From the NCBI GenBank assembly GCA_965208425.1, contig OZ242335.1, forward strand, positions 84,586 through 148,585: a stretch of DNA of 64,000 nucleotides, written 5' to 3'. The notes beneath the pieces are model-generated. The model was not told the origin of the DNA and made no database searches. It saw only the letters and a program-made list of their open reading frames with translations. Made by a program: the position numbers and the translations under genes. Shown one piece after another: positions 1-46,599 of the stretch. Each line of letters starts with the position of its first letter. Position 1 is the stretch's first letter. Source of the DNA: Candidatus Poribacteria bacterium. Its GTDB lineage: Bacteria; Poribacteria; WGA-4E; PCPOR2b.

Positions 1-1038
1 CAGCGTCGGTACTACGCAATCTATAGCAAATATATCAGCAAGTTTAGCCTGATAAATCACATCTCTAAGCTGAAACGATTGCCTCGGTTTACCCATTGGA
101 ATCAACTCCCCAGTCAAGCGATACAAGACGTAGCAGCACGCATCGACAAAGGCTACCGTGCCATGTTTGAAGCGCGTGCTTCAGGCAAGAGATGGGGCAG
201 ACCCCGTTTCAAGCCTCGTCGCAAGTATAAGTCATTCACATTGCTTCAGGCAGGTTGGAAACTCTTACCGGGCAATCGCATCCAGATAGGAAAACTTATC
301 TACTCCTATTTCAAGTCGCGCGATGTGTTTGGCAATCCGAAACGTTGTACGATTAAACGGGACGCCGTTGGAGATGTCTATATCTGTATCTTAACTGACT
401 ATGTAGAACCCGACCCCAATCGACTCACGACAGGTAAAATCGCGGGGTTTGATTTCGGTCTGAAACGGTATCTTACCGGTCATAACGGACACGATATAGA
501 ATCGCCACAGTTTTTTAAGCGCAGTATCAATGCTATCAAACGTGCAAACCGCGCGCATTCACGGAAAAAGAAAAAATCAAAGAACCGTGAACGCGCACGG
601 CTTGACTTGGCACGAAAACACCGCAAGATTGAACGCCAACGGGAGGATTTCCATTGGAAGTTGGCACACCAACTGACAGATGACTACGACGAGATACGGC
701 TTGAGGACTTAAATCTACAGGGCATGAAAATCCTCTGGGGAGGTAAGGTTAATGATTTAGGTTTTGGCGATTTCGTCAAAACGCTGATGTATATTGCCGA
801 CAAAAAAGGGGTCAAAATCGTGTTCATAGACAAGTGGTATCCAACGAGTAAAACTTGTTCGGTCTGCGGTGCGGTCAATGAAGTGTTGAATCTGCGGGAT
901 AGAACTTGGCAGTGTAATGATTGTCGCACGGTGCATGACCGAGACCGCAACGCTGCAACTAATATTTTTCGGGTTGGGGCGTCAACCCATGAAGGAGAGG
1001 ACGTAAGCCCCGATTCATCGGGCAATCCTTGTGGATAG
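1..1038 (+). CDS. tnpB: TnpB RNA-guided endonuclease (IS200/IS605 OrfB), 5' end outside the window
   Basis: Frame 1 is open from base 1 (QRRYYAIY...). Motifs: RuvC-I GFDFGLK, RuvC-II IRLEDLN, CSVC/CNDC zinc finger, RuvC-III DRDRNAATNI. Confidence 0.93.
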   Translation, partial: QRRYYAIYSKYISKFSLINHISKLKRLPRFTHWNQLPSQAIQDVAARIDKGYRAMFEARASGKRWGRPRFKPRRKYKSFTLLQAGWKLLPGNRIQIGKLIYSYFKSRDVFGNPKRCTIKRDAVGDVYICILTDYVEPDPNRLTTGKIAGFDFGLKRYLTGHNGHDIESPQFFKRSINAIKRANRAHSRKKKKSKNRERARLDLARKHRKIERQREDFHWKLAHQLTDDYDEIRLEDLNLQGMKILWGGKVNDLGFGDFVKTLMYIADKKGVKIVFIDKWYPTSKTCSVCGAVNEVLNLRDRTWQCNDCRTVHDRDRNAATNIFRVGASTHEGEDVSPDSSGNPCG

Positions 1039-3308: not shown

Positions 3309-3923
3309 ATGTTAGACGAATACAAAACCATCGTTGGAATAGCAGAGTCAAAGCTAGTTGTCAAAAAATCCCGTTTCTTTGGGCTTGTCACATCAGTTGA
3401 TACGATACAGGGATCGAAAAGATTTATAGCACTCATCCAAGAGAAATATCCCAACGCCTCACACTACTGCTGTGCATACAGTATCGGATGGGGGCATGAA
3501 AAGCGGGAGTATGCCACGGATGATGGCGAGCCGAGAAAGTCCGCAGGTCCCCCAATTTTAACCGCCGTGGCTTCATCTCAACTCTCGAATGTCATCTGTG
3601 TCGTTGTCCGCTACTACGGCGGCATCAATCTTGGCGTCGGTGGACTTATTCGGGCTTATGGTCGATGTGCGAGGGAATGTTTAGCGAGTGCAAAAATTGA
3701 AACTCGGATTTTTTACAAGACACTACAGGTGCAGACACCTTATGAACAGATTGGGTCGGTCCTCAAACTGTGTGGCAGATTAGGAGGAAGGGTGGTAAAC
3801 GTCGAATATGATCAACGTGCAACCGCACATCTGCAGATTCGCCAACGAGAGATTGAAAACTTTCGAGAGAATCTGCGTGGAATCAACACTGATATTGACG
3901 TGATTGATCCTGTAACTGTATAA
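3309..3923 (+). CDS. yigZ: YigZ/IMPACT family protein
   Basis: Motifs KKSRF, ASHYCCAY, DDGEP..SAG, VVVRYYGGINLGVGGLIRAY. Confidence 0.9.
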   Translation: MLDEYKTIVGIAESKLVVKKSRFFGLVTSVDTIQGSKRFIALIQEKYPNASHYCCAYSIGWGHEKREYATDDGEPRKSAGPPILTAVASSQLSNVICVVVRYYGGINLGVGGLIRAYGRCARECLASAKIETRIFYKTLQVQTPYEQIGSVLKLCGRLGGRVVNVEYDQRATAHLQIRQREIENFRENLRGINTDIDVIDPVTV

Positions 3924-9280: not shown

Positions 9281-10315
9281 CTATAACGTAACCGGCTCCC
9301 CAATCTCCGCTGATCGTTTCACCGCTCGGCAAATTGCTACCGCTTTCATACCCGCTTCGCCACTTGCCCGCGGTTCGCTCCCTGTTTCAATGCACTCGAT
9401 AAAATGCTCAATCTCTGCACGGAAAGAATCAAAATCCGGGTAGTTCTCTTCGTGCAAGGTTTCTGGATCATTCCGGAAGGAATAGTGCAAGGTGTCCACT
9501 CGATCGAACCCGCCTGTTACTTCCGCGACACCATTTTCATTGGCGACGTAGAAATCCTCAAAACTGAACCCACCCATCGAAACCATGCCAGCGTTGACAA
9601 TCCCTATCGCGCCGCCCTTGAAGCGCAGGGTAAACATTGCACAGTCGATCTGCGGTTTCCGGTGGGGTGCAAAGTAGGTTCCACCTTCTGCATAAACCCG
9701 CTCGACATCTCCCATCAGAAAGCCGAGAATGTCCGCCGCGTGCACGGCATTTTCGAGGATAGGTCCACCACCATCGTCCTCTGCCCAGAACCAATCCTTG
9801 TTCGACATCCCCGGATGCGGATACCTGTGGACCATGTACTGAATCGGACCGAATTCGCCTTCCGTCAGTTCCTTCAAACGCAGGAGCGGTGGGATAAATC
9901 GTTTCTTATGCCCAATCTGTAAGACAATACCCGCGGACTTGCACACATCGATCATCTCTTGGCAGTCCGAAACCGTGCTTGCCATCGGCTTCTCGCAAAG
10001 TACGTGGATGCCACGCTCCGCTGCTGCGCGTGTTAAAGCTAGGTGAATCTTCGGCGGGGTACAAATGCTGATTGCCGTCAGATCCTCCGTATCTAGCATC
10101 TCCTCCGCGGAGGTATAACCCTGGACACCGTACTGTGACGCGAAATCGTTTGTAATTTGTGGGACGATGTCACATACGCTGACCAACTCGGCGTCAGGAT
10201 TACCCGCCCACCGATCAACATGGGCGCGACCAACGCCTGCTAATCCAATCACTGCAACTTTGACTGCTCCCAATGTTGAAACATTGGGATTCTTAATAGA
10301 CTGATTGGTAGACAT
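9281..10315 (-). CDS. Gfo/Idh/MocA oxidoreductase whose first 18 codons come from the IS right end
   Basis: Motifs KVAVIGLAGVG, HVLCEKPMA, GGGPILENAVH. ATG at 10315 with a GGAG RBS lies inside the tnpB element end. Confidence 0.88.
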   Translation of the reverse strand: MSTNQSIKNPNVSTLGAVKVAVIGLAGVGRAHVDRWAGNPDAELVSVCDIVPQITNDFASQYGVQGYTSAEEMLDTEDLTAISICTPPKIHLALTRAAAERGIHVLCEKPMASTVSDCQEMIDVCKSAGIVLQIGHKKRFIPPLLRLKELTEGEFGPIQYMVHRYPHPGMSNKDWFWAEDDGGGPILENAVHAADILGFLMGDVERVYAEGGTYFAPHRKPQIDCAMFTLRFKGGAIGIVNAGMVSMGGFSFEDFYVANENGVAEVTGGFDRVDTLHYSFRNDPETLHEENYPDFDSFRAEIEHFIECIETGSEPRASGEAGMKAVAICRAVKRSAEIGEPVTL

Positions 10316-10425
10316 TTTACATCTCCATGCTATTTTCTTGTTTCGACGAGATATGCCACGAAGTGCCGTGGGCTTACCATCTCTCCACCCCGATAAATCG
10401 GGATCTCCCGATAAATCGGGACGTT

Positions 10426-11526
10426 TTACGTCTCCGTGTGTCCCATGGCGACGGTTCTGAGGTTTATTGCAGCGTTTCGGTCTCTGTCTTGTGTATGACC
10501 ACACACACTGCAATGGTACGTCCTATCCGACAAGGACAAGTCGCTATTGACTGTGCCGCAAGTTGAGCAAGTCTTACTGGACGGGTAGAAAGTATCTGCT
10601 TCTACAATTTTAACCCCCATACGTTCTGCCTTGTATTTAAGCATAGATAAGAAACTTGACAATGATGCCTCCGATAATGCCTTTGCAAGTCTATGATTCT
10701 TGAGCATTCCAGCAACATTAAGTGACTCTATCCCGATACGGCTTGCACGATTGACAATAGTTGTTGTTGTCTTGTGTTGAGCGTCTTGTCGAATACAGGT
10801 GATACGGTAATGCAGTTTGGCAAGTTTCGCTTTCGTCTTGTGCCAATTCCGACTGCCTTTTTCCTGTCGGCTTAACTGACGTTGCAACCGTTTTAACTTA
10901 CGCTCATAACGTTTTAAGGCTTTGGGATTCTCGTAGTAGACACCTTCGGAAGTGACTGCAAGATGCTTGATACCTACGTCCACACCAACAGTAGGCAATC
11001 CACGAATCTCTGGAGAGGTATCGTCTATAACGGTGTCTACCAGTATAGAAGCAAACCAACGGTGACCATGCTTAGAGATAACCACCTTGCAGATAGTACC
11101 GAGGTAGCGAAGGGATTGGAACATGCGAACCCAACCAATTTTGGGTAGTTTTATACGATGTCCTTCGACAATAGTTGTGCCTCGACCTGCGTCTGCTTGG
11201 AAACTCTGACCCCGTGAACGCTTCTTGAACTTTGGAAAACGACTCTGACCGGACTTCCATCTCCGTATTGCGTCTTGAAAATTAAAGTAAATCGCATTAT
11301 GAGCAGCACGTTGATTAAGTGCTTTACACCACTCGTATTGCTCATGTTTGACCGAATTAAAACGTTTGTTTAACGCTATATGGCTATACCACTTACCTGC
11401 GTTGAGTCCACGCTTAAAATCAGCAAGCACGTGATTATAGGCAACACGAGCATAGCCACAATGTTGAGCGAATTGTGTCGCTTGGACGTTGTTTGGATCT
11501 AAAGCGATTTTGTGAGTTTTTAACAT
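10426..11526 (-). CDS. tnpB: TnpB RNA-guided endonuclease
   Basis: HTH_OrfB-like N-terminus, GVDVGIK, IGIESLN, CSTC/CSVC, DRDRNAAINL. Confidence 0.95.
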   Translation of the reverse strand: MLKTHKIALDPNNVQATQFAQHCGYARVAYNHVLADFKRGLNAGKWYSHIALNKRFNSVKHEQYEWCKALNQRAAHNAIYFNFQDAIRRWKSGQSRFPKFKKRSRGQSFQADAGRGTTIVEGHRIKLPKIGWVRMFQSLRYLGTICKVVISKHGHRWFASILVDTVIDDTSPEIRGLPTVGVDVGIKHLAVTSEGVYYENPKALKRYERKLKRLQRQLSRQEKGSRNWHKTKAKLAKLHYRITCIRQDAQHKTTTTIVNRASRIGIESLNVAGMLKNHRLAKALSEASLSSFLSMLKYKAERMGVKIVEADTFYPSSKTCSTCGTVNSDLSLSDRTYHCSVCGHTQDRDRNAAINLRTVAMGHTET

Positions 11527-11541
11527 TGGAATTGTCTTTCT

Positions 11542-11616
11542 GTCTTTCGAGACCTATAGTAGTAGGTGTGGGAGACCCTAACGTGCGTTAGGGCTACTAT
11601 TTTCCCACCGAAAGAC
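11542..11616 (-). ncRNA. Pseudoknotted IS605 leader RNA motif, copy 2
   Basis: Stems GTCTTTCG/CGAAAGAC, GTGGGA/TCCCAC, CCCTAAC/GTTAGGG, ACCT/AGGT; pseudoknot ATAGTAG/CTACTAT. Confidence 0.65.
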
Positions 11617-11892
11617 AAACCAAGTAACCATATTTTGCCAACAATATCAAGTTTTTTAACGAAAGCACGATACGACAACGTTTGACCCAACGCTAAGTCC
11701 CGTTTCACGGGATCCCGATGTATCGGGATTGGAAACAGCACCTACCAATTTGGAGTGTCTCATTAATTCTAAAATCTACTATAAATGAAGCCGTGAACGA
11801 ATTGTCCTCACGTTTCACACATCACGTTTCACGCATTATACCCCGTAGTTTAGCAGAGAGGGATTGCAGAGTCAAGATAAACAAAAAGATAA

Positions 11893-40361: not shown

Positions 40362-41930
40362 ATGCTTGAACTTTACGACACAACACTCAGAGACGGAAAC
40401 CAAGGGGAAGGGGTCGCTTTCTCGGTTGAGGACAAGCTGCTTATCATCAAAGCCCTTGATCGTCTGGGCATCCATTACATCGAAGGCGGATACCCCGGCT
40501 CGAATCCAAAAGATATGGAGTTCTTCAAAAGTGCAAAATCACTTCAACTCCAACAGTCAGAAGTCGTGCCTTTCGGCAGCACACGCCATCCGCGCTATCA
40601 ACCCAGTGAAGACCCCAATCTGCTAGCATTACTAGATACAGGTGCCCGCACCGTCACGATTTTTGGAAAGAGTTGGGAACTCCACGCCACAGACGTGCTT
40701 CGTGTCACAGCACAGGAAAATATTGAACTCATCGAAAGCTCAGTTCGTTTTCTGGTCGAGAGCGGACGCGAGGTTATCTACGATGCAGAACACTTCTTTG
40801 ATGGTTATGATGACCAACCGGATTATGCACTGCAAACCCTCAAAGCGGCAGCACGGGGCGGCGCAAGATGTGTCGTGTTATGCGACACGAACGGCGGTCG
40901 ATTGCCTCTAGAAATTCAGGAAGGTGTACGGTCAGTCATGGCGGAGATTGATCTGCCAGTCGGTATTCACACCCATAACGATGCCGGCGTGGGGGTCGCA
41001 AACACCGTTCTTGCTGTGCAGGCGGGGGCAGCGCATATACAAGGAACATTCAACGGTTACGGTGAACGCTGCGGCAATGCCAATCTCGCTTCTATCATCC
41101 CAACACTCAAACTCAAGCTAGAGATTGACTGCATCACCGAGGAGGGACTGAGCCAACTGACAGAAACATCACGTCTTATCAGTGAACTGGCGAACCTGCC
41201 ACACGACGAGCGTCAGCCGTATGTTGGGAGTTCCGCTTTCGCTCACAAAGGCGGTATGCACATCGACGCTGTGCGCAAGAATCCACGCACCTTTGAACAT
41301 ATTGATCCGGAACTAGTCGGCAATGAACAACGCATTCTAATCTCCGATCAGGCCGGTAAAAGTGCTATCCTAAAAAAGATTGAAAGACGCTATCCAAATT
41401 ACGACAAGAATTCACCGGAAGTCATCGCCCTTTTCGATCGGCTGAAAGAAGCGGAAAATGAAGGTTATCAATATGAAGCGGCTGATGCATCGTTTGAACT
41501 GCTGACCCGTACGCTCTTGGATGGCTATCAGCCCTTTTTCGATCTGCTCGGCTTCCGCGTTATTATTGAAAAAGTCAAAGACCACGGCATCCGGTCTGAA
41601 GCAACAATTAAAGTAATGGCACCCGATGGCGAAGTTGAACACACCGCCGCTGATGGCGATGGTCCTGTCAATGCCCTCGACAGCGCGCTGCGCAAAGCAC
41701 TTGAGCGTTTCTATCCCTCCCTACACGATGTCCATCTCACCGACTATAAGGTACGCGTTTTGGACACCCAAGCTGGCACTGGCGCGAAAGTGCGTGTGCT
41801 GATTGAAGCAAGCGATGGGCGAGAACATTGGGGTACGGTTGGTGTATCAGAAAACATCATACAGGCGAGTTGGGAAGCCCTCACGGATAGCTTGGAATAC
41901 AAACTTTATAAAGACAGTCGTGAAGCGTAA
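40362..41930 (+). CDS. cimA: Citramalate synthase
   Basis: DTTLRDG.QGEG, IEGGYPGSNPKD, DAEHFFDG, HTHND, AHKGGMH, C-terminal regulatory domain. Confidence 0.93.
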   Translation: MLELYDTTLRDGNQGEGVAFSVEDKLLIIKALDRLGIHYIEGGYPGSNPKDMEFFKSAKSLQLQQSEVVPFGSTRHPRYQPSEDPNLLALLDTGARTVTIFGKSWELHATDVLRVTAQENIELIESSVRFLVESGREVIYDAEHFFDGYDDQPDYALQTLKAAARGGARCVVLCDTNGGRLPLEIQEGVRSVMAEIDLPVGIHTHNDAGVGVANTVLAVQAGAAHIQGTFNGYGERCGNANLASIIPTLKLKLEIDCITEEGLSQLTETSRLISELANLPHDERQPYVGSSAFAHKGGMHIDAVRKNPRTFEHIDPELVGNEQRILISDQAGKSAILKKIERRYPNYDKNSPEVIALFDRLKEAENEGYQYEAADASFELLTRTLLDGYQPFFDLLGFRVIIEKVKDHGIRSEATIKVMAPDGEVEHTAADGDGPVNALDSALRKALERFYPSLHDVHLTDYKVRVLDTQAGTGAKVRVLIEASDGREHWGTVGVSENIIQASWEALTDSLEYKLYKDSREA

Positions 41931-42043
41931 AACGTGATGCGTGATAATCCGCAAACGGTGCGAGAAAAATCACCCCTTAAATCAGTCTTAATGCTTGACA
42001 GAACCGCTTCTATTTGTTACAATATATGTAACAGTTGGATAAT

Positions 42044-42247
42044 TATAGTGAATTCTAAAAATAAAGGGACACTTTCGCCTCCCGGTAGGTGCGGTCCGAT
42101 AAATCGTGACCAGGGCTTCTAACCGCATCGCATAGATGCCGTGGTGGGTTGAAACGGCTTGTCCCGATTCTCGGGATCTCGATAAATCGGGATTGGAAAC
42201 AGTGCCTACCAATTTAGAGTGTTCCATTAATTCTAAGATCTACTATA
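42044..42247. repeat. MITE family B (inverted)
   Basis: TATAGTGAATTC...ATTAATTCTAAGATCTACTATA. Confidence 0.65.
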
Positions 42248-42357
42248 AATCAATAGGAGGTTTTACATGACATCTTTCAATTTACTCAAGCCAAAGTCTA
42301 GGCTTCGGTCTAATGATTTTCCGTTACAAATAACGGTAAAACTGATATAATTGTTTT

Positions 42358-42430
42358 GTCTTTCGGTGGGAGAATGGCGTACCGTCGCTTGGCGGTGTCT
42401 CCTACACCTACGCCAAGGGAATCGAAAGAC
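42358..42430 (+). ncRNA. Pseudoknotted IS605 leader RNA motif, copy 3
   Basis: Stems GTCTTTCG/CGAAAGAC, GTGGGAGA/TCTCCTAC, ACCGTC/GGCGGT, CCT/AGG; pseudoknot TGGCGT/ACGCCA. Confidence 0.65.
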
Positions 42431-42445
42431 GGAAAGACAATTCCA

Positions 42446-43546
42446 ATGTTAAAAACTCACAAAATCGCTTTAGATCCAAATAACGTTCAAGCGACGCAGT
42501 TCGCTCAACATTGCGGTTATGCTCGTGTTGCATATAACACTGCCTTAACCGATTTCAAAGAAGGATTGGATACAGGTGATTGGCGTTGTCATATAGTGCT
42601 CTGTCGTCGTTTGAATGCAATCAAAGCAGAAGCCTTTCCTTGGTCAACGTCACATTCGCAAAACGCCTCCAAGAATGCGATTTATACCAATCTCAAGGAT
42701 GCTATAGGACGTTGGAAGTCAGGACAGAATCGGTTTCCCAAGTTCAAGAAGCGTTCACACGGTCAGAGTTATCAAGCGGATAGCGGTCGAGGCACAATCC
42801 CTGTCGTAGGCAAGCGGATTAAACTTCCCAAAATCGGTTGGGTTCGCTTATGTCAATCCCTACGCTTCCTTGGTACTATCTGCAAAGTCGTTATCTCTAA
42901 GACAGCTAACCGTTGGTTCGCTTCTATCACTGTTGATACTTTTATTGACAATCCCATATCTGATAATCGTGGACTTCCTACTGTTGGTGTGGACGTAGGT
43001 ATCAAGCACTTGGCGGTCACGTCCGAAGGGGTGTACTACGAGAATCCGAAAGTCTTAAAACGTTATGAGCGCAAGTTAAAACGGTTACAACGCCGGTTAA
43101 GCCGCCGGGAAAAAGGGAGTCGGAATTGGCATAAGACGAGAGCGAAACTTGCCAAGCTGCATTACCGTATCACCTGTATCCGACAAGACGCTCAACACAA
43201 GGCAACAACAGCTATTGTCAACGGTGCAAGTCGTATCGGAATAGAGTCTCTGAACGTTACTGGAGTGCTCAAGAATCATAGACTTGCCAAAGCATTATCA
43301 GATGCCTCACTGTCAACGTTTCTGTCTATGCTCAAATACAAGGCAGAACGGATAGGCGTAAAGATTGTAGAAGCAGACACCTTCTACCCAAGCAGTAAGA
43401 CTTGTTCCGCTTGCGGTACGGTCGATAGCGACTTGTTCTTGTCGGATAGGACCTACCATTGCAGTGTGTGTGGTCATACACAAGACAGAGACCTTAACGC
43501 TGCAATAAACCTCAGAACCGTCGCCGTGGGACACACGGAGACGTAA
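42446..43546 (+). CDS. tnpB: TnpB RNA-guided endonuclease, close paralog of 10426-11526
   Basis: GVDVGIK, IGIESLN, CSAC/CSVC, DRDLNAAINL. Confidence 0.95.
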   Translation: MLKTHKIALDPNNVQATQFAQHCGYARVAYNTALTDFKEGLDTGDWRCHIVLCRRLNAIKAEAFPWSTSHSQNASKNAIYTNLKDAIGRWKSGQNRFPKFKKRSHGQSYQADSGRGTIPVVGKRIKLPKIGWVRLCQSLRFLGTICKVVISKTANRWFASITVDTFIDNPISDNRGLPTVGVDVGIKHLAVTSEGVYYENPKVLKRYERKLKRLQRRLSRREKGSRNWHKTRAKLAKLHYRITCIRQDAQHKATTAIVNGASRIGIESLNVTGVLKNHRLAKALSDASLSTFLSMLKYKAERIGVKIVEADTFYPSSKTCSACGTVDSDLFLSDRTYHCSVCGHTQDRDLNAAINLRTVAVGHTET

Positions 43547-43656
43547 AACGTCCCGATTTATCGGGAGATCCCGATTTATCGGGGTGGAGAGATGGTAAGC
43601 CCACGGTACTTCGTGGCACGTCTCGTCGAAACAGGAAAATAGCATGGAGATGTAAA

Positions 43657-44265
43657 ATGTCTACCAATCAGTCTATTAAGAATCCCAAGTCTTTAGGCTT
43701 GGGAGCAGTCAATGATTTACAACAGATTGCTAAGGCAGCGCAAGAGATTATCCAGATCTGTGAGCAAAAACGGACTAACAAAGCAGACAAGGAAAAGCTG
43801 CTTAAGCTGCAGGGGGCAATCCTCACACATATCGAAGAGCTTACCGAATGCGAAGCTTGCGGGTCAATCACAGATCTAGTTGTGACGATGACGATCGAAC
43901 CGGTGACGGCAAAGCTATGCAAAGATTGTGGGATAAGCGCGATCGAAGCCGGAAAAATTAAAAAAGCTACGACGCGAAAGCGATCCCCCCGAACTGCACA
44001 GAAAAATGTACCAGTATCGAAGAAAAAATCATCGCCACGACGAGCATCACCCAAGAATGCCGACGAACTGTATGCCGAGGTAGAGAAGGAAACAAGGCTC
44101 AAGAAAACGGATGTCAAACGCCTGCACAAAATTATCCAAGAGATCGCGAGTCCGATGAACCTTGAGAACACAGTCTTATATGTGAAGCATGAGGCTGAAC
44201 TTGCGAAATTGAGGATAGAGCAAGATGCTTTGAAAACGGCGGTCACGTTATTAATGGCGGCGTGA
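43657..44265 (+). CDS. Hypothetical zinc-finger, K/R-rich protein; N-terminus supplied by the IS right end
   Basis: CEAC...CKDC and a basic SPR/SPK linker. The original AGGAGG-ATG start is stranded at 42255-42269. Confidence 0.75.
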   Translation: MSTNQSIKNPKSLGLGAVNDLQQIAKAAQEIIQICEQKRTNKADKEKLLKLQGAILTHIEELTECEACGSITDLVVTMTIEPVTAKLCKDCGISAIEAGKIKKATTRKRSPRTAQKNVPVSKKKSSPRRASPKNADELYAEVEKETRLKKTDVKRLHKIIQEIASPMNLENTVLYVKHEAELAKLRIEQDALKTAVTLLMAA

Positions 44266-45061: not shown

Positions 45062-46204
45062 ATGAAATTTTGGAAAAAAGTAACACAAAATTTCAGTAAA
45101 GATGAAGTAAGAAAAGCGGAGATGCTAGAGATTCATACACGCAGAATCCGAGGAGAACGGCTATCTCGCAAGCAAACCCGGTTGTTAAAAGCAAGCGAGC
45201 AATATCCAGAATTGGACCCTTTGAAAGATCTCATTGATTTTGCACATCACCGTTTTGAGGAGAGAGAAAATGTCACCCCGCTTCCTGGAGCAAAACGACG
45301 CATCGCTAACAATCTGATGCAGTTAATTGGTCGTGACGCTCCGGAAGATGATGCGCTGCTAGGCGATGAAATTAGCTTGGTGCCAGCATACAGCCCTGAT
45401 CTGGTCGGGAGTGATAGTGAACTTGCCTTACCAAATGTTTCCGGTGATCTACCGCCACCAATTCCTGAATCGATAGATCCGCTTAATGAGACTGTCATCC
45501 TTGAAGGTGAAGCGGTAGAATCGGCAACGTCTCCAGTAGAGGCATGTCACCTGAAATTGCAGGTGGCGCAGGGCGATGAGGTTGGACGTGAGTATGACAT
45601 CTCTTTCCAACCTATGATTATCGGCTGTGGGGGGGAGGTAGCTGTCCAGTTAGATGCCAACACCCCTGTATCACAACATCATGCGTTACTCACTGTTGAT
45701 GACGATGAGCTGCTGATCACAAATCTTGACAGCGACAGTGGTACGTCGGTTGATGGCGCTAAAATTACTGAACCAACACCACTTCATGTCGCCTCTAGGG
45801 TCCAGATAGGCGGACAGGTGCTTGAAGTGGCTGCATTCCGGCGGGATGCTAGTGTCCTAGGTGTTTCCTTTGAAGTTGTAGAAGGACCCGATGTGGGACA
45901 GGTCCACTGGGTCCATTTCAAAGAAATGACGGTCGGACGCAGCGCAGCAGCGCAAATCAAACTTGCTGATTCAACAGGAACCCTCTCTCGCCTACATGCT
46001 CGGTTTAATCTGAAAAACGGCGAGGTATATCTTACCGATCTCGGTAGTAAAAACGGGACTTACGTTGATGGCTTTCGTATAGAGGAGCCAACCGTCGTTG
46101 AACCAGGCATGCGCATTGGGTTCAGTGAAATTATCTGTGAAGTCACGCACATTGAAAATTCCAGAGACAATCCCAATGCTTTAGCGTTGGGTCAAACGGC
46201 GTAA
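45062..46204 (+). CDS. Soluble protein with two FHA domains, putative anti-sigma or regulator
   Basis: Second FHA intact (GR, SRLHA, SKNGT); first FHA degenerate. The last 13 codons come from an inserted IS left end. Confidence 0.8.
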   Translation: MKFWKKVTQNFSKDEVRKAEMLEIHTRRIRGERLSRKQTRLLKASEQYPELDPLKDLIDFAHHRFEERENVTPLPGAKRRIANNLMQLIGRDAPEDDALLGDEISLVPAYSPDLVGSDSELALPNVSGDLPPPIPESIDPLNETVILEGEAVESATSPVEACHLKLQVAQGDEVGREYDISFQPMIIGCGGEVAVQLDANTPVSQHHALLTVDDDELLITNLDSDSGTSVDGAKITEPTPLHVASRVQIGGQVLEVAAFRRDASVLGVSFEVVEGPDVGQVHWVHFKEMTVGRSAAAQIKLADSTGTLSRLHARFNLKNGEVYLTDLGSKNGTYVDGFRIEEPTVVEPGMRIGFSEIICEVTHIENSRDNPNALALGQTA

Positions 46205-46599
46205 TTTTGTCCCGATTCTCGGGATCCCGACCTGTCGGGGCTTGATGTTCTTAGCAAAAGTATGGTATAATTTTAATACGTCCAAAAGCGGGAGAGTCTC
46301 ACCCCTACGCCTTGTAGGGTCTCCCGTTCCTTCTGGTGAAACAGAGGAATTGGACGCGTGGCTACCCAAGCCACATAAGGACGAAAACCAAGTCCAACAA
46401 TTATACCGTCGTGGCGGGACACGCCAAGACGTTAAAACGCTTGTGGAGGGACAGTAAGACCTCCGATGTATTGGAGGCAAGTTTCGTCGAAGCAAGTATA
46501 CGGCAGGGGTGCCCTTATCTGGACAGGCCCGTAAGTCCGTTAAAAACTCTCAAAGGAGACTCATAAGAATCCCAATGTTTCAACTTTGGGAGCGGTCAA
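46157..46599 (+). mobile_element. Non-autonomous IS200/IS605 derivative (leader RNA plus omegaRNA-like region, no tnpB)
   Basis: TTGAA|...CAAT plus hairpin CCCAATGCTTTAGCGTTGGG; right end AAGAATCCCAATG...TTGGGAGCGGTCAA. 46405-46500 resembles the tnpB 3' omegaRNA at 43518-43640. Confidence 0.8.
46279..46356 (+). ncRNA. Pseudoknotted IS605 leader RNA motif, copy 4
   Basis: Stems CGTCCAA/TTGGACG, GCGGGAGA/TCTCCCGT, CCTAC/GTAGG; pseudoknot GTCTCACC/GGTGAAAC. Confidence 0.6.

What the first reader, a model, noticed from the sequence alone, without database searches (positions are those of the whole stretch)
42255..43760. tnpB element targets a start codon and supplies an in-frame replacement start from its right end
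Seen in sequence: the host AGGAGG-ATG sits at 42255-42269. The left-end guide CAAG is at +16..19 before the hairpin. By the IS608/ISDra2 guide-to-cleavage pairing rule (GAAT/TCAA, AAAG/TTAC, CACA/TGAT) it predicts the target TGAC, and TGAC is present overlapping the start codon (ATG AC|). Removing 42272-43712 rebuilds ATG ACT GAT TTA CAA (MTDLQQIAK...) in frame. The right end carries GGAG-N7-ATG (43657), which reads MSTNQSIKNPKSLGLGAV through the TnpA hairpin and ends in phase 2 (GTC AA|). That is the phase left by any insertion after ATG-AN. Inference: a splicing-free alternative to IStrons, in which the element neutralises its insertion by re-starting the host gene with an 18-aa leader under its own promoter. 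The omegaRNA guide would then be the host coding sequence itself, so TnpB would cut the empty allele at its start codon.
Basis: partly seen in the sequence, partly recalled or inferred. Interest (0 to 1): 0.88.

Follow-up and report, generated by a model that had tools for sequence, protein, structure and literature searches.

The report
Transposon that re-starts the gene it splits
A small TnpB-carrying jumping gene sits exactly between a host gene's start codon and its second codon, and its far end carries its own ribosome site and start codon in the right frame, apparently keeping the host gene working; dozens of related copies do the same, some in essential genes.

Summary
A 1,441-bp tnpB-only IS200/IS605-type element (42272-43712) lies after ATG-AC of a conserved host gene. 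Empty alleles in related genomes and in metagenome contigs read AGGAGG-N6-ATGAC|TGATTTACAA (MTDLQQIAK).

The right end carries GGAG-N7-ATG plus 18 codons and ends in phase 2, fused to the 184-codon host frame.

The pattern holds across the family. I pooled 88 elements at 81 distinct sites, from this genome and 72 loci of related genomes. Of 44 sites whose right end has this start module, 31 run in frame into at least 100 open host codons. Only 5 of 37 sites without it do (Fisher p = 4e-7).

In 19 of 30 fusion proteins scanned, a full-length family model starts at residue 18-27, meaning the junction is the host N-terminus. Hosts include the only nadD, fmt and pyrG of their genomes. Host dN/dS is 0.03-0.14.

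Guide and cleavage tetranucleotides covary (CAAT/TGAA, CAAG/TGAC, GAAT/TCAA, GAAC/TCAG).

Translation from the right-end ATG is inferred, not shown; no RNA or protein data covered the junction. My literature searches found no description of this strategy. I rate it a new variant of a known kind, of high interest.

The parts
41995..42023 (+). Host promoter-like site, TTGACA-17-TACAAT with an upstream TG. It overlaps an inverted repeat, TGTTACA-N5-TGTAACA (42015-42033).
   Evidence: 11 of 12 consensus matches. The sequence is read, and the same repeat is present upstream of the empty alleles.
42044..42246 (+). An unrelated 203-nt MITE, flanked by TA, inserted between the host promoter and the host SD. 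It is not part of the TnpB element.
   Evidence: Its last ~50 nt match about 180 places in the genome. It is absent from the empty alleles and from the sister filled allele L013. A DNA contig joins 42043 to 42247.
42255..42271 (+). Original host SD (AGGAGG, 42255-42260), start codon (ATG, 42267-42269) and the first two bases of codon 2 (AC). The target/TAM TGAC is 42268-42271.
   Evidence: empty alleles read AGGAGGTTTC.CATGAC|TGATTTACAA.
42267..42350 (+). Residual short ORF (27 codons plus stop) that the old host start now opens into the LE.
   Evidence: Read from the sequence. In copies with the commoner LE type the equivalent ORF is 10 codons (sequences).
42272..42308 (+). Left end: 15 nt, then the guide CAAG (42287-42290), then an imperfect palindrome CCAAAGTC-TA-GGCTTCGG (42291-42308). 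The cleavage site lies 19 nt 5' of the hairpin foot.
   Evidence: Guide and flank covary across copies. The 19-nt distance equals that stated for IS608 in passages of PMC3201880.
42323..42351 (+). Promoter-like site inside the LE, GTTACA-17-TATAAT with an upstream TG.
   Evidence: 10 of 12. An equivalent TGGTATAAT or TGATATAAT is present in other copies.
42446..43546 (+). tnpB, 366 aa from the ATG shared by the other copies.
   Evidence: Pfam HTH_OrfB_IS605, OrfB_IS605 and Cas12f1-like_TNB. ISDra2 TnpB structure 8bf8, E = 9.5e-51 over residues 6-360.
43483..43712 (+). Presumed omegaRNA scaffold: the 3' end of tnpB through to the RE.
   Evidence: RNAalifold on 35 copies gave 38 pairs, 16 of them with compensatory changes. 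There was no Rfam match and no RNA data.
43646..43713 (+). Right-end start module: SD GGAG (43646-43649), 7-nt spacer, ATG (43657), 18 codons MSTNQSIKNPKSLGLGAV, and the junction codon AA|T (43711-43713).
43680..43712 (+). RE core: guide GAAT (43680-43683), palindrome CCCAAGTC-TTTA-GGCTTGGG (43684-43703), AGCAG, and the cleavage site TCAA (43709-43712).
   Evidence: every RE with AAGAAT ends in TCAA and every RE with AAGAAC ends in TCAG.
43713..44265 (+). Host gene from the third base of codon 2 to its stop: a conserved 184-aa protein with a weak zinc-ribbon match. The first ~16-20 nt would serve as the omegaRNA guide.
   Evidence: Orthologs were found in 44 of 61 related genomes. dN/dS is 0.128 against the other filled allele.

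Best explanation
This is a non-autonomous (tnpB-only) IS200/IS605-family element. A Y1 TnpA supplied in trans inserted it 3' of the tetranucleotide TGAC, which here overlaps the host start codon (ATG AC|).

The insertion cuts the host SD and ATG off from the coding sequence. The right end compensates. Within a variable stem-loop of the presumed omegaRNA scaffold it carries an SD (GGAG), an ATG 7 nt downstream, and 18 sense codons. These run through the TnpA-binding hairpin and end with two bases (AA) of a codon. That is exactly the phase left by an insertion after ATG-AN.

The host protein would therefore be made with its initiator Met (and here Thr2) replaced by MSTNQSIKNPKSLGLGAV-N. The transcript could come from the host promoter or from the promoter-like site in the LE.

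This looks like an adaptation of a whole lineage of elements whose commonest target is TGAA, so that ATG-AA|N starts are rebuilt as ...GTC AA|N with codon 2 unchanged. The likely effects are:

- insertions at start codons, including those of essential genes, become tolerable;
- the element is placed in a transcribed position;
- conserved coding sequence becomes the omegaRNA guide.

Shown here: the boundaries, the empty alleles, the in-frame association, the N-terminal position of the junction, purifying selection on the hosts, and single-copy essential hosts.

Inferred: initiation at the RE ATG, promoter use, TnpB/omegaRNA activity with TAM TGAC/TGAA, and homing.
For: Anatomy and boundaries.

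Empty alleles:
- The reference site is empty in 8 of the 10 ortholog loci examined and in DNA contigs of runs X1 and X5.
- The SixA-like site is empty in 9 of 9 loci from other genomes. The site of the window's second copy is empty in 7 of the 8 other-genome loci my motif matched; the eighth, G005, is filled, and L123 did not match and was not examined.

Own genome: 13 of 13 copies with this RE type are fused in frame to 162-628 open codons. The 3 copies without the ATG are followed by 1, 57 and 26 codons.

Pooled data, 88 elements at 81 sites:
- At the 44 start-module sites, at least 100 open codons follow in phase 0, 1 and 2 at 3, 1 and 31 sites.
- At the 37 sites without the module the counts are 3, 2 and 5.
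- Fisher p = 3.7e-7.
- Only 14.4% of all 77,888 TGAA sites in the genome have such an open frame.

The junction is the N-terminus. In 19 of 30 fusions a family model's positions 1-3 align at residues 18-27. Examples are NadK, RibBA, PBP2, NadD, Dam, UbiX, ThiO, Fmt, RimK, MnmG and SixA.

The codon formed at the target in fused sites is ATG 17, TTG 4, CTG 3 and GTG 1. In leader-less elements it is ATG in 6 of 29 (rows).

The interrupted nadD, fmt and pyrG are each the only match above the family cut-off in their genomes.

Host dN/dS is 0.026-0.141 in 7 pairs of genomes filled at the same site. In two of these pairs the element's dS is close to the host's, indicating long co-residence.

Decayed elements keep the module intact. 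These are L082/L084 (truncated tnpB), a 925-bp copy in mnmG, and an internally deleted copy in G005.

Two other leader sequences at the same position are also fused in frame, to pyrG and to thiO.

Leader-less subfamilies have a 3-10 bp hairpin where the SD-ATG sits, so the module is not a general omegaRNA requirement.
Against: - No RNA, ribosome or peptide evidence exists. The one RNA run gave contigs that did not cover the RE-host junction or the host gene.
- SD and ATG lie inside the scaffold that TnpB should bind, and they are partly paired in the single-sequence fold.
- GGAG and the TCT after the ATG could be conserved partly as a stem.
- RE conservation is expected anyway from TnpA and omegaRNA constraints, and the copies are related at 74-98%. 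The two groups compared are clades, not independent draws.
- The leader-less group mostly targets TGAC rather than TGAA (24 against 9). This confounds the comparison.
- 13 of 44 start-module sites are not fused. Most sit just upstream of an SD-ATG.
- Two copies with a damaged module (GGAG to GGTG; ATG to ATA) still precede open host frames of 170 and 375 codons.
- All genomes other than the window's own are metagenome-assembled.
Confidence: 0.8

Rival explanations
1. The right-end ORF is a by-product. The RE sequence is conserved only for TnpA binding and the omegaRNA. Host proteins are made some other way, for example from another start or from cells in which TnpA has precisely excised the element.
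For: GGAG and the bases after the ATG can pair, as UGG/CCA and AGA/UCU. Two copies with a mutated SD or ATG still have open host frames. There are no expression data.
Against: It does not explain why 31 of 35 start-module sites that abut a long ORF are in phase 2, nor why leader-less sisters are not. N-terminal motifs begin right at the junction, so any start must lie inside the RE, and the SD-ATG is the only ATG with an SD in that frame. Decayed elements keep the module. Excision in a subpopulation cannot sustain a sole nadD, fmt or pyrG.
Confidence: 0.1
2. Target preference alone. The elements simply prefer (A)TGAA, a sequence common at Met-Lys and Met-Asn starts, and the interrupted genes are dead or dispensable.
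For: The target TGAA does overlap a very common start context. Some hosts belong to large paralogous families; the Gfo/Idh/MocA host has over 100 matches per genome.
Against: Host dN/dS is 0.026-0.141 with no stops or frameshifts in any of 7 pairs. The hosts include the sole nadD, fmt and pyrG of their genomes. Start-module elements that are not fused show no preference for A before TGAA: ATG 4, CTG 3, TTG 3. Only 18.5% of ATGAA sites in the genome open onto 100 or more codons in that frame.
Confidence: 0.04
3. Removal at the RNA level, IStron-like or by some other processing, restores the original mRNA.
For: IStrons are a precedent for TnpB elements that neutralise their own insertion (passages of 10.1101/2023.11.20.567912).
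Against: No Rfam family, and so no group I or group II intron, matched 41900-44000 at E <= 1 apart from a chance snoRNA hit. The element has IS608-like ends and no ribozyme-sized non-coding part. Splicing would not require, and would not explain, the phase-2 SD-ATG module.
Confidence: 0.03

Closest known systems
IS608 / ISDra2 (IS200/IS605 family, TnpA + TnpB)
   Same: Both have subterminal imperfect palindromes and no inverted terminal repeats. Both insert 3' of a tetranucleotide without duplicating it, and the cleavage sites are read by a 4-nt guide 5' of each hairpin. The left cleavage site is 19 nt from the hairpin foot and the right one, TCAA, is about 9-10 nt 3' of it, as stated for IS608 in passages of PMC3201880. 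The TnpB is homologous to ISDra2 TnpB.
   Different: This element has no tnpA; TnpA genes lie elsewhere in the genome. Its target is TGAC or TGAA, placed on start codons. Its right end carries an SD, an ATG and an 18-codon leader in phase with the host gene, which I did not find described for these elements.
IStrons (IS607/IS605-type elements fused to group I introns)
   Same: Both are TnpB-bearing transposons that reduce the cost of sitting inside a gene. In both, the omegaRNA spans the element-host junction, so guide-RNA formation and host-gene rescue compete for the same transcript (passages read).
   Different: Rescue here would act at translation (a re-start giving an N-terminal extension), not by splicing. 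No ribozyme was detected. The strategy works only at the first codon.
TnpB/IscB homing ('peel-and-paste' retention, Meers et al.)
   Same: The TAM is the TnpA target and the guide is the sequence flanking the RE, so the empty allele (donor joint) is the predicted TnpB target (passages read). The reference element is 97-100% identical between two genomes whose flanks are about 90% identical, with a tract of about 100 nt of raised identity after the RE. This fits copying by recombination into the same site.
   Different: The guide is the 5' end of a conserved coding sequence. Spread between lineages is inferred from identity profiles only.
Insertion sequences with outward promoters or read-out fusions (recalled, e.g. 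IS10 pOUT, ISAba1)
   Same: A mobile element end supplies expression signals to the adjacent host gene.
   Different: Those supply transcription signals, opportunistically. Here a translation start in a fixed phase is matched to the element's own target sequence.

Membership tests
IS200/IS605 family | Subterminal imperfect palindromes at both ends, with no terminal inverted repeats | tested here: met
   The LE palindrome is at 42291-42308 and the RE palindrome at 43684-43703. They resemble each other and those of the other copies.
IS200/IS605 family | Insertion 3' of a specific tetra- or pentanucleotide, with no target duplication and scarless empty sites | tested here: met
   Empty alleles read ...ATGAC|TGATTT and ...ATGAA|ACATTA...ATGAA|AGTTGC.
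IS200/IS605 family | Cleavage sites specified by 4-nt guide sequences 5' of the hairpin foot | tested here: met
   Covariation CAAT/TGAA, CAAG/TGAC, GAAT/TCAA and GAAC/TCAG. The rule itself comes from passages of PMC3201880.
IS200/IS605 family | A Y1 (HUH) transposase TnpA encoded in the element | tested here: not met
   There is no tnpA between 42272 and 43712. Eight PF01797 matches lie elsewhere in the genome, one beside a tnpB with a related RE. The element is therefore non-autonomous (IS1341-like; that name is recalled).
TnpB (OMEGA RNA-guided nuclease) | RuvC-like nuclease with a zinc-ribbon (TNB) domain, homologous to characterised TnpB | tested here: met
   Three Pfam domains above their cut-offs. 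PDB 8bf8/8exa, E = 9.5e-51. The motifs GVDVGIK, IESLNV and DRDLNAAINL are present; their catalytic roles are recalled.
TnpB (OMEGA RNA-guided nuclease) | An omegaRNA overlapping the 3' end of tnpB and ending at the RE, with the guide taken from the flank | tested here: inconclusive
   A conserved structure with 16 compensatory pairs was found. There is no Rfam family and no transcript data.
IStron | A self-splicing group I intron ribozyme within the element | tested here: not met
   No intron family matched at E <= 1 in 41900-44000.

The most novel reading that the evidence does not exclude
A lineage of TnpB transposons has evolved a dedicated 'start-codon docking' lifestyle.

- The TnpA target (TGAA or TGAC) and a right-end SD-ATG leader ending in phase 2 are matched to each other, so insertion between codon 1 and codon 2 is phenotypically near-silent even in essential genes.
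- The same design puts the element under host transcription.
- It makes imprecise loss of the element lethal.
- It turns the conserved 5' coding sequence into the omegaRNA guide, so the element can home into empty alleles of other strains, acting as a gene drive at gene starts.
- Because the start module lies inside the omegaRNA scaffold, TnpB binding or processing would compete with host translation. That would give the element a handle on the expression of the gene it occupies.
Probability: 0.45. Interest if true: 0.92.

Novelty: new variant of a known kind. Interest (0 to 1): 0.86.

Why it matters
IS200/IS605 and TnpB elements are among the commonest mobile genes, and TnpB is the ancestor of Cas12. 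The only known way such an element hides inside a gene is RNA splicing, in IStrons. A translational re-start matched to the transposase's own target sequence would be a second, much simpler solution.

It would explain how these elements can sit in essential genes. It predicts N-terminally tagged housekeeping proteins in nature, and a conflict between guide-RNA formation and host translation that can be tested. It also suggests why coding sequence may be a good guide for homing.

For annotation, it means gene callers will mis-start or split these host genes. For engineering, it offers a natural design for scar-tolerant, self-expressing insertions at start codons.

Tried and rejected
RNA evidence. 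The run search listed one run on record as RNA (X20, holding 0.05 of the sampled words). When laid, its contigs matched parts of tnpB at 90-99% and ran on into other copies' right ends. None covered the RE-host junction or the host gene, so nothing can be said about expression.

Rfam. At E <= 1, the region 41900-44000 gave only a chance snoRNA hit: no omegaRNA family and no intron.

Autonomous partner. The best TnpA locus (L100) has a related RE, but its LE guide does not follow the CAAT/CAAG pattern. I did not identify which TnpA moves these elements.

Failed or faulty steps of my own:
- The first LE regex was wrong and found nothing; it was corrected.
- A loose RE regex gave false ends inside tnpB; it was replaced.
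- In some searches, two leader-less loci (L027, L064) were read at a false RE inside their LE. With the true RE they are still not fused.
- misfiled four start-module sites because of a length filter. I do not use its group totals, only its per-row LE table, in which the reference site's LE was also mislocated (I use for that site).
- One search is the final count. The earlier one search count was 32 of 45 against 4 of 36.

Rows dropped. Three of 75 loci had no recognisable RE (L075, L083, L085). L010 and L012 and L123 did not match my protein motif and were not examined. LEs could not be located by regex in many loci because of small palindrome insertions or truncation.

Reach. The search for related loci reaches close relatives only, so I did not test whether other TnpB lineages or phyla do the same.

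No protein database search, structure prediction or complex prediction was needed. Supplementary files of papers were not consulted and could hold insertion-site tables that bear on novelty.

Literature. Searches were read as listings and abstract starts. Passages were read in 10.1101/2023.11.20.567912, PMC3201880, 10.1101/2023.03.14.532601 and PMC10691335. None mentions start-codon insertion with a right-end start.
Full report
**What is there.** The window lies in a 6.8-Mb single-contig genome. Close relatives fetched from public records are titled 'Candidatus Poribacteria' MAGs.

Between 42272 and 43712 sits a 1,441-bp element. Its only long ORF (42446-43546) is a TnpB:
- Pfam HTH_OrfB_IS605, OrfB_IS605 and Cas12f1-like_TNB, all above their cut-offs.
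- The ISDra2 TnpB structure 8bf8, at E = 9.5e-51 over residues 6-360.

There is no tnpA in the element. Eight Y1-transposase matches lie elsewhere in the genome.

- AGGAGG at 42255-42260, ATG at 42267, then AC.
- LE from 42272, with CAAG at +16..19 directly 5' of an imperfect palindrome.
- In the RE, GGAG (43646), seven bases, then ATG (43657).
- Eighteen codons (MSTNQSIKNPKSLGLGAV) running through the RE palindrome.
- The element ends ...GTC AA| at 43712, and the frame continues for 184 codons to 44265.

**Boundaries.**
- blastn of 42200-43800 against the genome found 16 element copies including the query, at 74-82% identity. Their homology stops at window position 43712.
- The four bases 5' of the hairpin foot covary with the cleavage sites. 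LE guide CAAT goes with flank TGAA, and CAAG with TGAC: the reference and three others in this genome, and more in related genomes.
- At the RE, every AAGAAT end finishes in TCAA and every AAGAAC end in TCAG, across the 71 of 75 loci where the RE was found.
- This is the IS608 logic. Passages of PMC3201880 state guides 5' of each palindrome, a left cleavage site 19 nt from the foot and TCAA on the right. Here the left distance is also 19 nt.

**Empty alleles.** The host protein has orthologs in 44 of 61 related genomes. Of the 12 loci fetched, my motif search matched 10:
- Six read AGGAGGTTTC.CATGACT|GATTTACAACAG (MTDLQQIAK).
- Two read ATGGCT (MADLQ).
- Two are filled: this genome and G005.

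Independently, DNA contigs of two public runs join 42044/42045 directly to 43713, with '...AGGAGGTTTCACATGAC' in between. They lack both the element and an unrelated 203-nt MITE (42044-42246) that sits between the host promoter and the SD.

Two further sites were checked the same way:
- A SixA-like gene is empty in 9 of 9 loci from other genomes (...ATGAA|ACATTACTA, MKTLLILRHAKS).
- The Gfo/Idh/MocA gene that carries the window's second copy (RE end at 10260, minus strand) is empty in 7 loci (...ATGAA|AGTTGCAGTG, MKVAVIG).

**The family pattern.** In this genome 12 copies have the SD-ATG leader and a thirteenth has ATG changed to ATA. All 13 are followed in the RE frame by open host reading frames of 162-628 codons. 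Three sister copies whose RE lacks the ATG are followed by 1, 57 and 26 codons.

I then took 75 loci encoding close TnpB relatives from other genomes and found an RE in 72. Pooled with the 16 own copies, and merging flanks at least 80% identical, this gives 88 elements at 81 sites.

| Site type | Sites | ≥100 open codons, phase 0 | phase 1 | phase 2 |
|---|---|---|---|---|
| In-phase ATG within 40 codons of the end, preceded by GGAG/GAGG/AGGA | 44 | 3 | 1 | 31 |
| No such module | 37 | 3 | 2 | 5 |

- Fisher p = 3.7e-7.
- Two of the five phase-2 sites without a module are this RE type with a damaged module (GGAG to GGTG; ATG to ATA).
- For comparison, 14.4% of all 77,888 TGAA sites of the genome open onto at least 100 codons in that frame.

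The two groups are clades, and the leader-less one mostly targets TGAC. The test therefore overstates independence. However, two different leader sequences at the same RE position (MGNNCYSS..., MNKCGSS...) are also fused in frame, to pyrG and to thiO.

**The junction is the host N-terminus.** I scanned 30 fusion ORFs against NCBIfam.
- In 19, positions 1-3 of a family model align at residues 18-27 of the fusion, directly after the 18-residue leader. These are NAD kinase, RibBA, PBP2, NadD, Dam, an inositol-dehydrogenase-like protein, arylsulfatase, UbiX, ThiO, Fmt, Rid, a tartronate-semialdehyde-reductase-like protein, RimK, PGDH-like, DgaE-like, SixA, MnmG, a hydroxylase, and a Gfo/Idh/MocA enzyme.
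- The other 11 had no full-length model, or began with signal-peptide-like segments.
- None placed the junction deep inside a model.

The codon formed by the base before the target plus TG, where the LE could be located (rows; for the reference), was:

| Group | ATG | TTG | CTG | GTG |
|---|---|---|---|---|
| Fused start-module sites (25) | 17 | 4 | 3 | 1 |
| Start-module sites not fused (10) | 4 | 3 | 3 | 0 |
| Leader-less elements (29) | 6 | 15 | 7 | 1 |

The transposase target is therefore TGAA or TGAC, not ATGAA. The excess of true start codons must come from what survives or is favoured.

**Are the hosts alive?**
- The interrupted nadD (two genomes), fmt and pyrG are each the only match above the family cut-off in their genome.
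- In seven pairs of genomes filled at the same site, the host ORFs are intact with dN/dS of 0.026-0.141.
- In two pairs (nadD, rimK-like) the element's synonymous divergence is about that of the host gene (0.51 against 0.71; 0.22 against 0.24). This indicates long co-residence under purifying selection.
- Elements that have lost most of tnpB still keep the SD, ATG and frame. These are the rimK pair, a 925-bp copy in mnmG, and an internally deleted copy in G005.

**Movement.** For the reference site the picture is different. The host gene differs at dS 0.415 between this genome and the other filled genome, but tnpB differs only at dS 0.026.

Along the alignment, the flanks are about 90% identical and the element 97-100%. 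The first 100 nt after the RE are 97% identical, falling to 82-87% beyond. The element therefore reached the same start codon in both lineages recently, with a short co-converted tract. This is what recombinational homing into an empty allele would leave, but it is an inference.

At three other sites the two genomes carry clearly different elements at the same start codon (tnpB dS 0.56 to 1.45, against host dS 0.13 to 0.39; different end types). Such sites are evidently used repeatedly.

**Where the module sits in the RNA.** RNAalifold on 35 right-end regions gave a conserved structure with 16 compensatory pairs. The SD-ATG occupies a peripheral stem-loop. In leader-less subfamilies this is a 3-10 bp hairpin of unrelated sequence. 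In this subfamily it is reduced to a few pairs around a 6-8-nt variable spacer, with GGAG and ATG kept. The single-sequence fold pairs part of the SD and ATG weakly. If TnpB binds this scaffold, guide-RNA formation and host translation would compete, by analogy with IStrons. This was not tested.

**Transcription.** There are consensus promoter matches upstream of the host gene (41995-42023) and inside the LE (42323-42351, with TG). No plus-strand terminator-like site lies between tnpB and the host gene. These are pattern matches only.

**What is not shown.** No transcript, ribosome or peptide evidence was obtainable. TnpB activity, the TAM, the responsible TnpA and promoter use are inferred.

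**Comparison and novelty.** By its ends, target behaviour and TnpB, the element belongs to the IS200/IS605 family as a non-autonomous member. It is not an IStron, since no ribozyme was found. The matched pair is what is new: a target overlapping the start codon, and a right-end SD-ATG leader ending in phase 2. I found no description of it in six full-text searches, nor in passages of four key papers. Supplements were not seen.

**Verdict.** Confidence is 0.8 that the right end functions as a replacement translation start. I rate it a new variant of a known kind, with interest 0.86.

Noticed in passing
window 42044-42246: A 203-nt MITE flanked by TA, with imperfect terminal inverted repeats, sits between the host promoter and the SD. 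Its last ~50 nt match about 180 places in the genome. It is absent from the empty alleles and from the sister filled allele, and a DNA contig joins 42043 to 42247.
   Followed up: partly
window ~9284-11700, minus strand (RE end at 10260): This is the closest sister copy (82.5% identity). It is fused in frame to a Gfo/Idh/MocA gene (MKVAVIG...). The 5' half of its LE is replaced by a copy of the same MITE family in reverse orientation. G005 shares the site with an internally deleted element whose RE is intact.
   Followed up: partly
window 46157-46599: A tnpB-less mini-element of about 443 nt has a matching LE, promoter-like site, scaffold-like part and RE. It is inserted after TGAA in the last codons of the FHA-domain gene (45062-46204). 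The LE supplies that gene's final ~15 codons and its stop.
   Followed up: partly
window 43553-43585, and genome-wide: Small palindromic units of the form CCCGAT(A/T)2-4ATCGGG occur 381 times in the genome. They are found inside the omegaRNA-like region of some copies, inside LE hairpin loops of others, and inside the MITE. They may be a very small mobile or recombinogenic repeat.
   Followed up: no
window 42356-42440: A long hairpin-like 5' leader (GTCTTTCGG...CGAAAGAC) lies between the LE promoter-like site and the tnpB ATG. It is present in most copies with differing inner sequence. Its covariation was not tested.
   Followed up: no
window 42015-42033: An inverted repeat, TGTTACA-N5-TGTAACA, overlaps the -10 of the host promoter and is conserved upstream of the empty alleles. 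It is a candidate operator for the host gene, which precedes a sigma-70-family gene and an FHA gene.
   Followed up: no
L026/L032, L037/L062, L063/L068: Different subfamily elements, with different LE and RE types and tnpB dS of 0.56-1.45, occupy the same start codon in different genomes whose host genes are much closer. The same start codons are reused.
   Followed up: partly
L067 (RE end near 3734): The leader frame ends in a TGA that overlaps the host ATG (ATGA). Here the leader could act by termination-reinitiation coupling rather than by fusion.
   Followed up: no
L032 (left junction, about 2310-2330): At a fused site the bases before the LE read ...AGAATAAA| rather than ...ATGAA|. This may be decay of the old, now unused start codon after insertion.
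   Followed up: no
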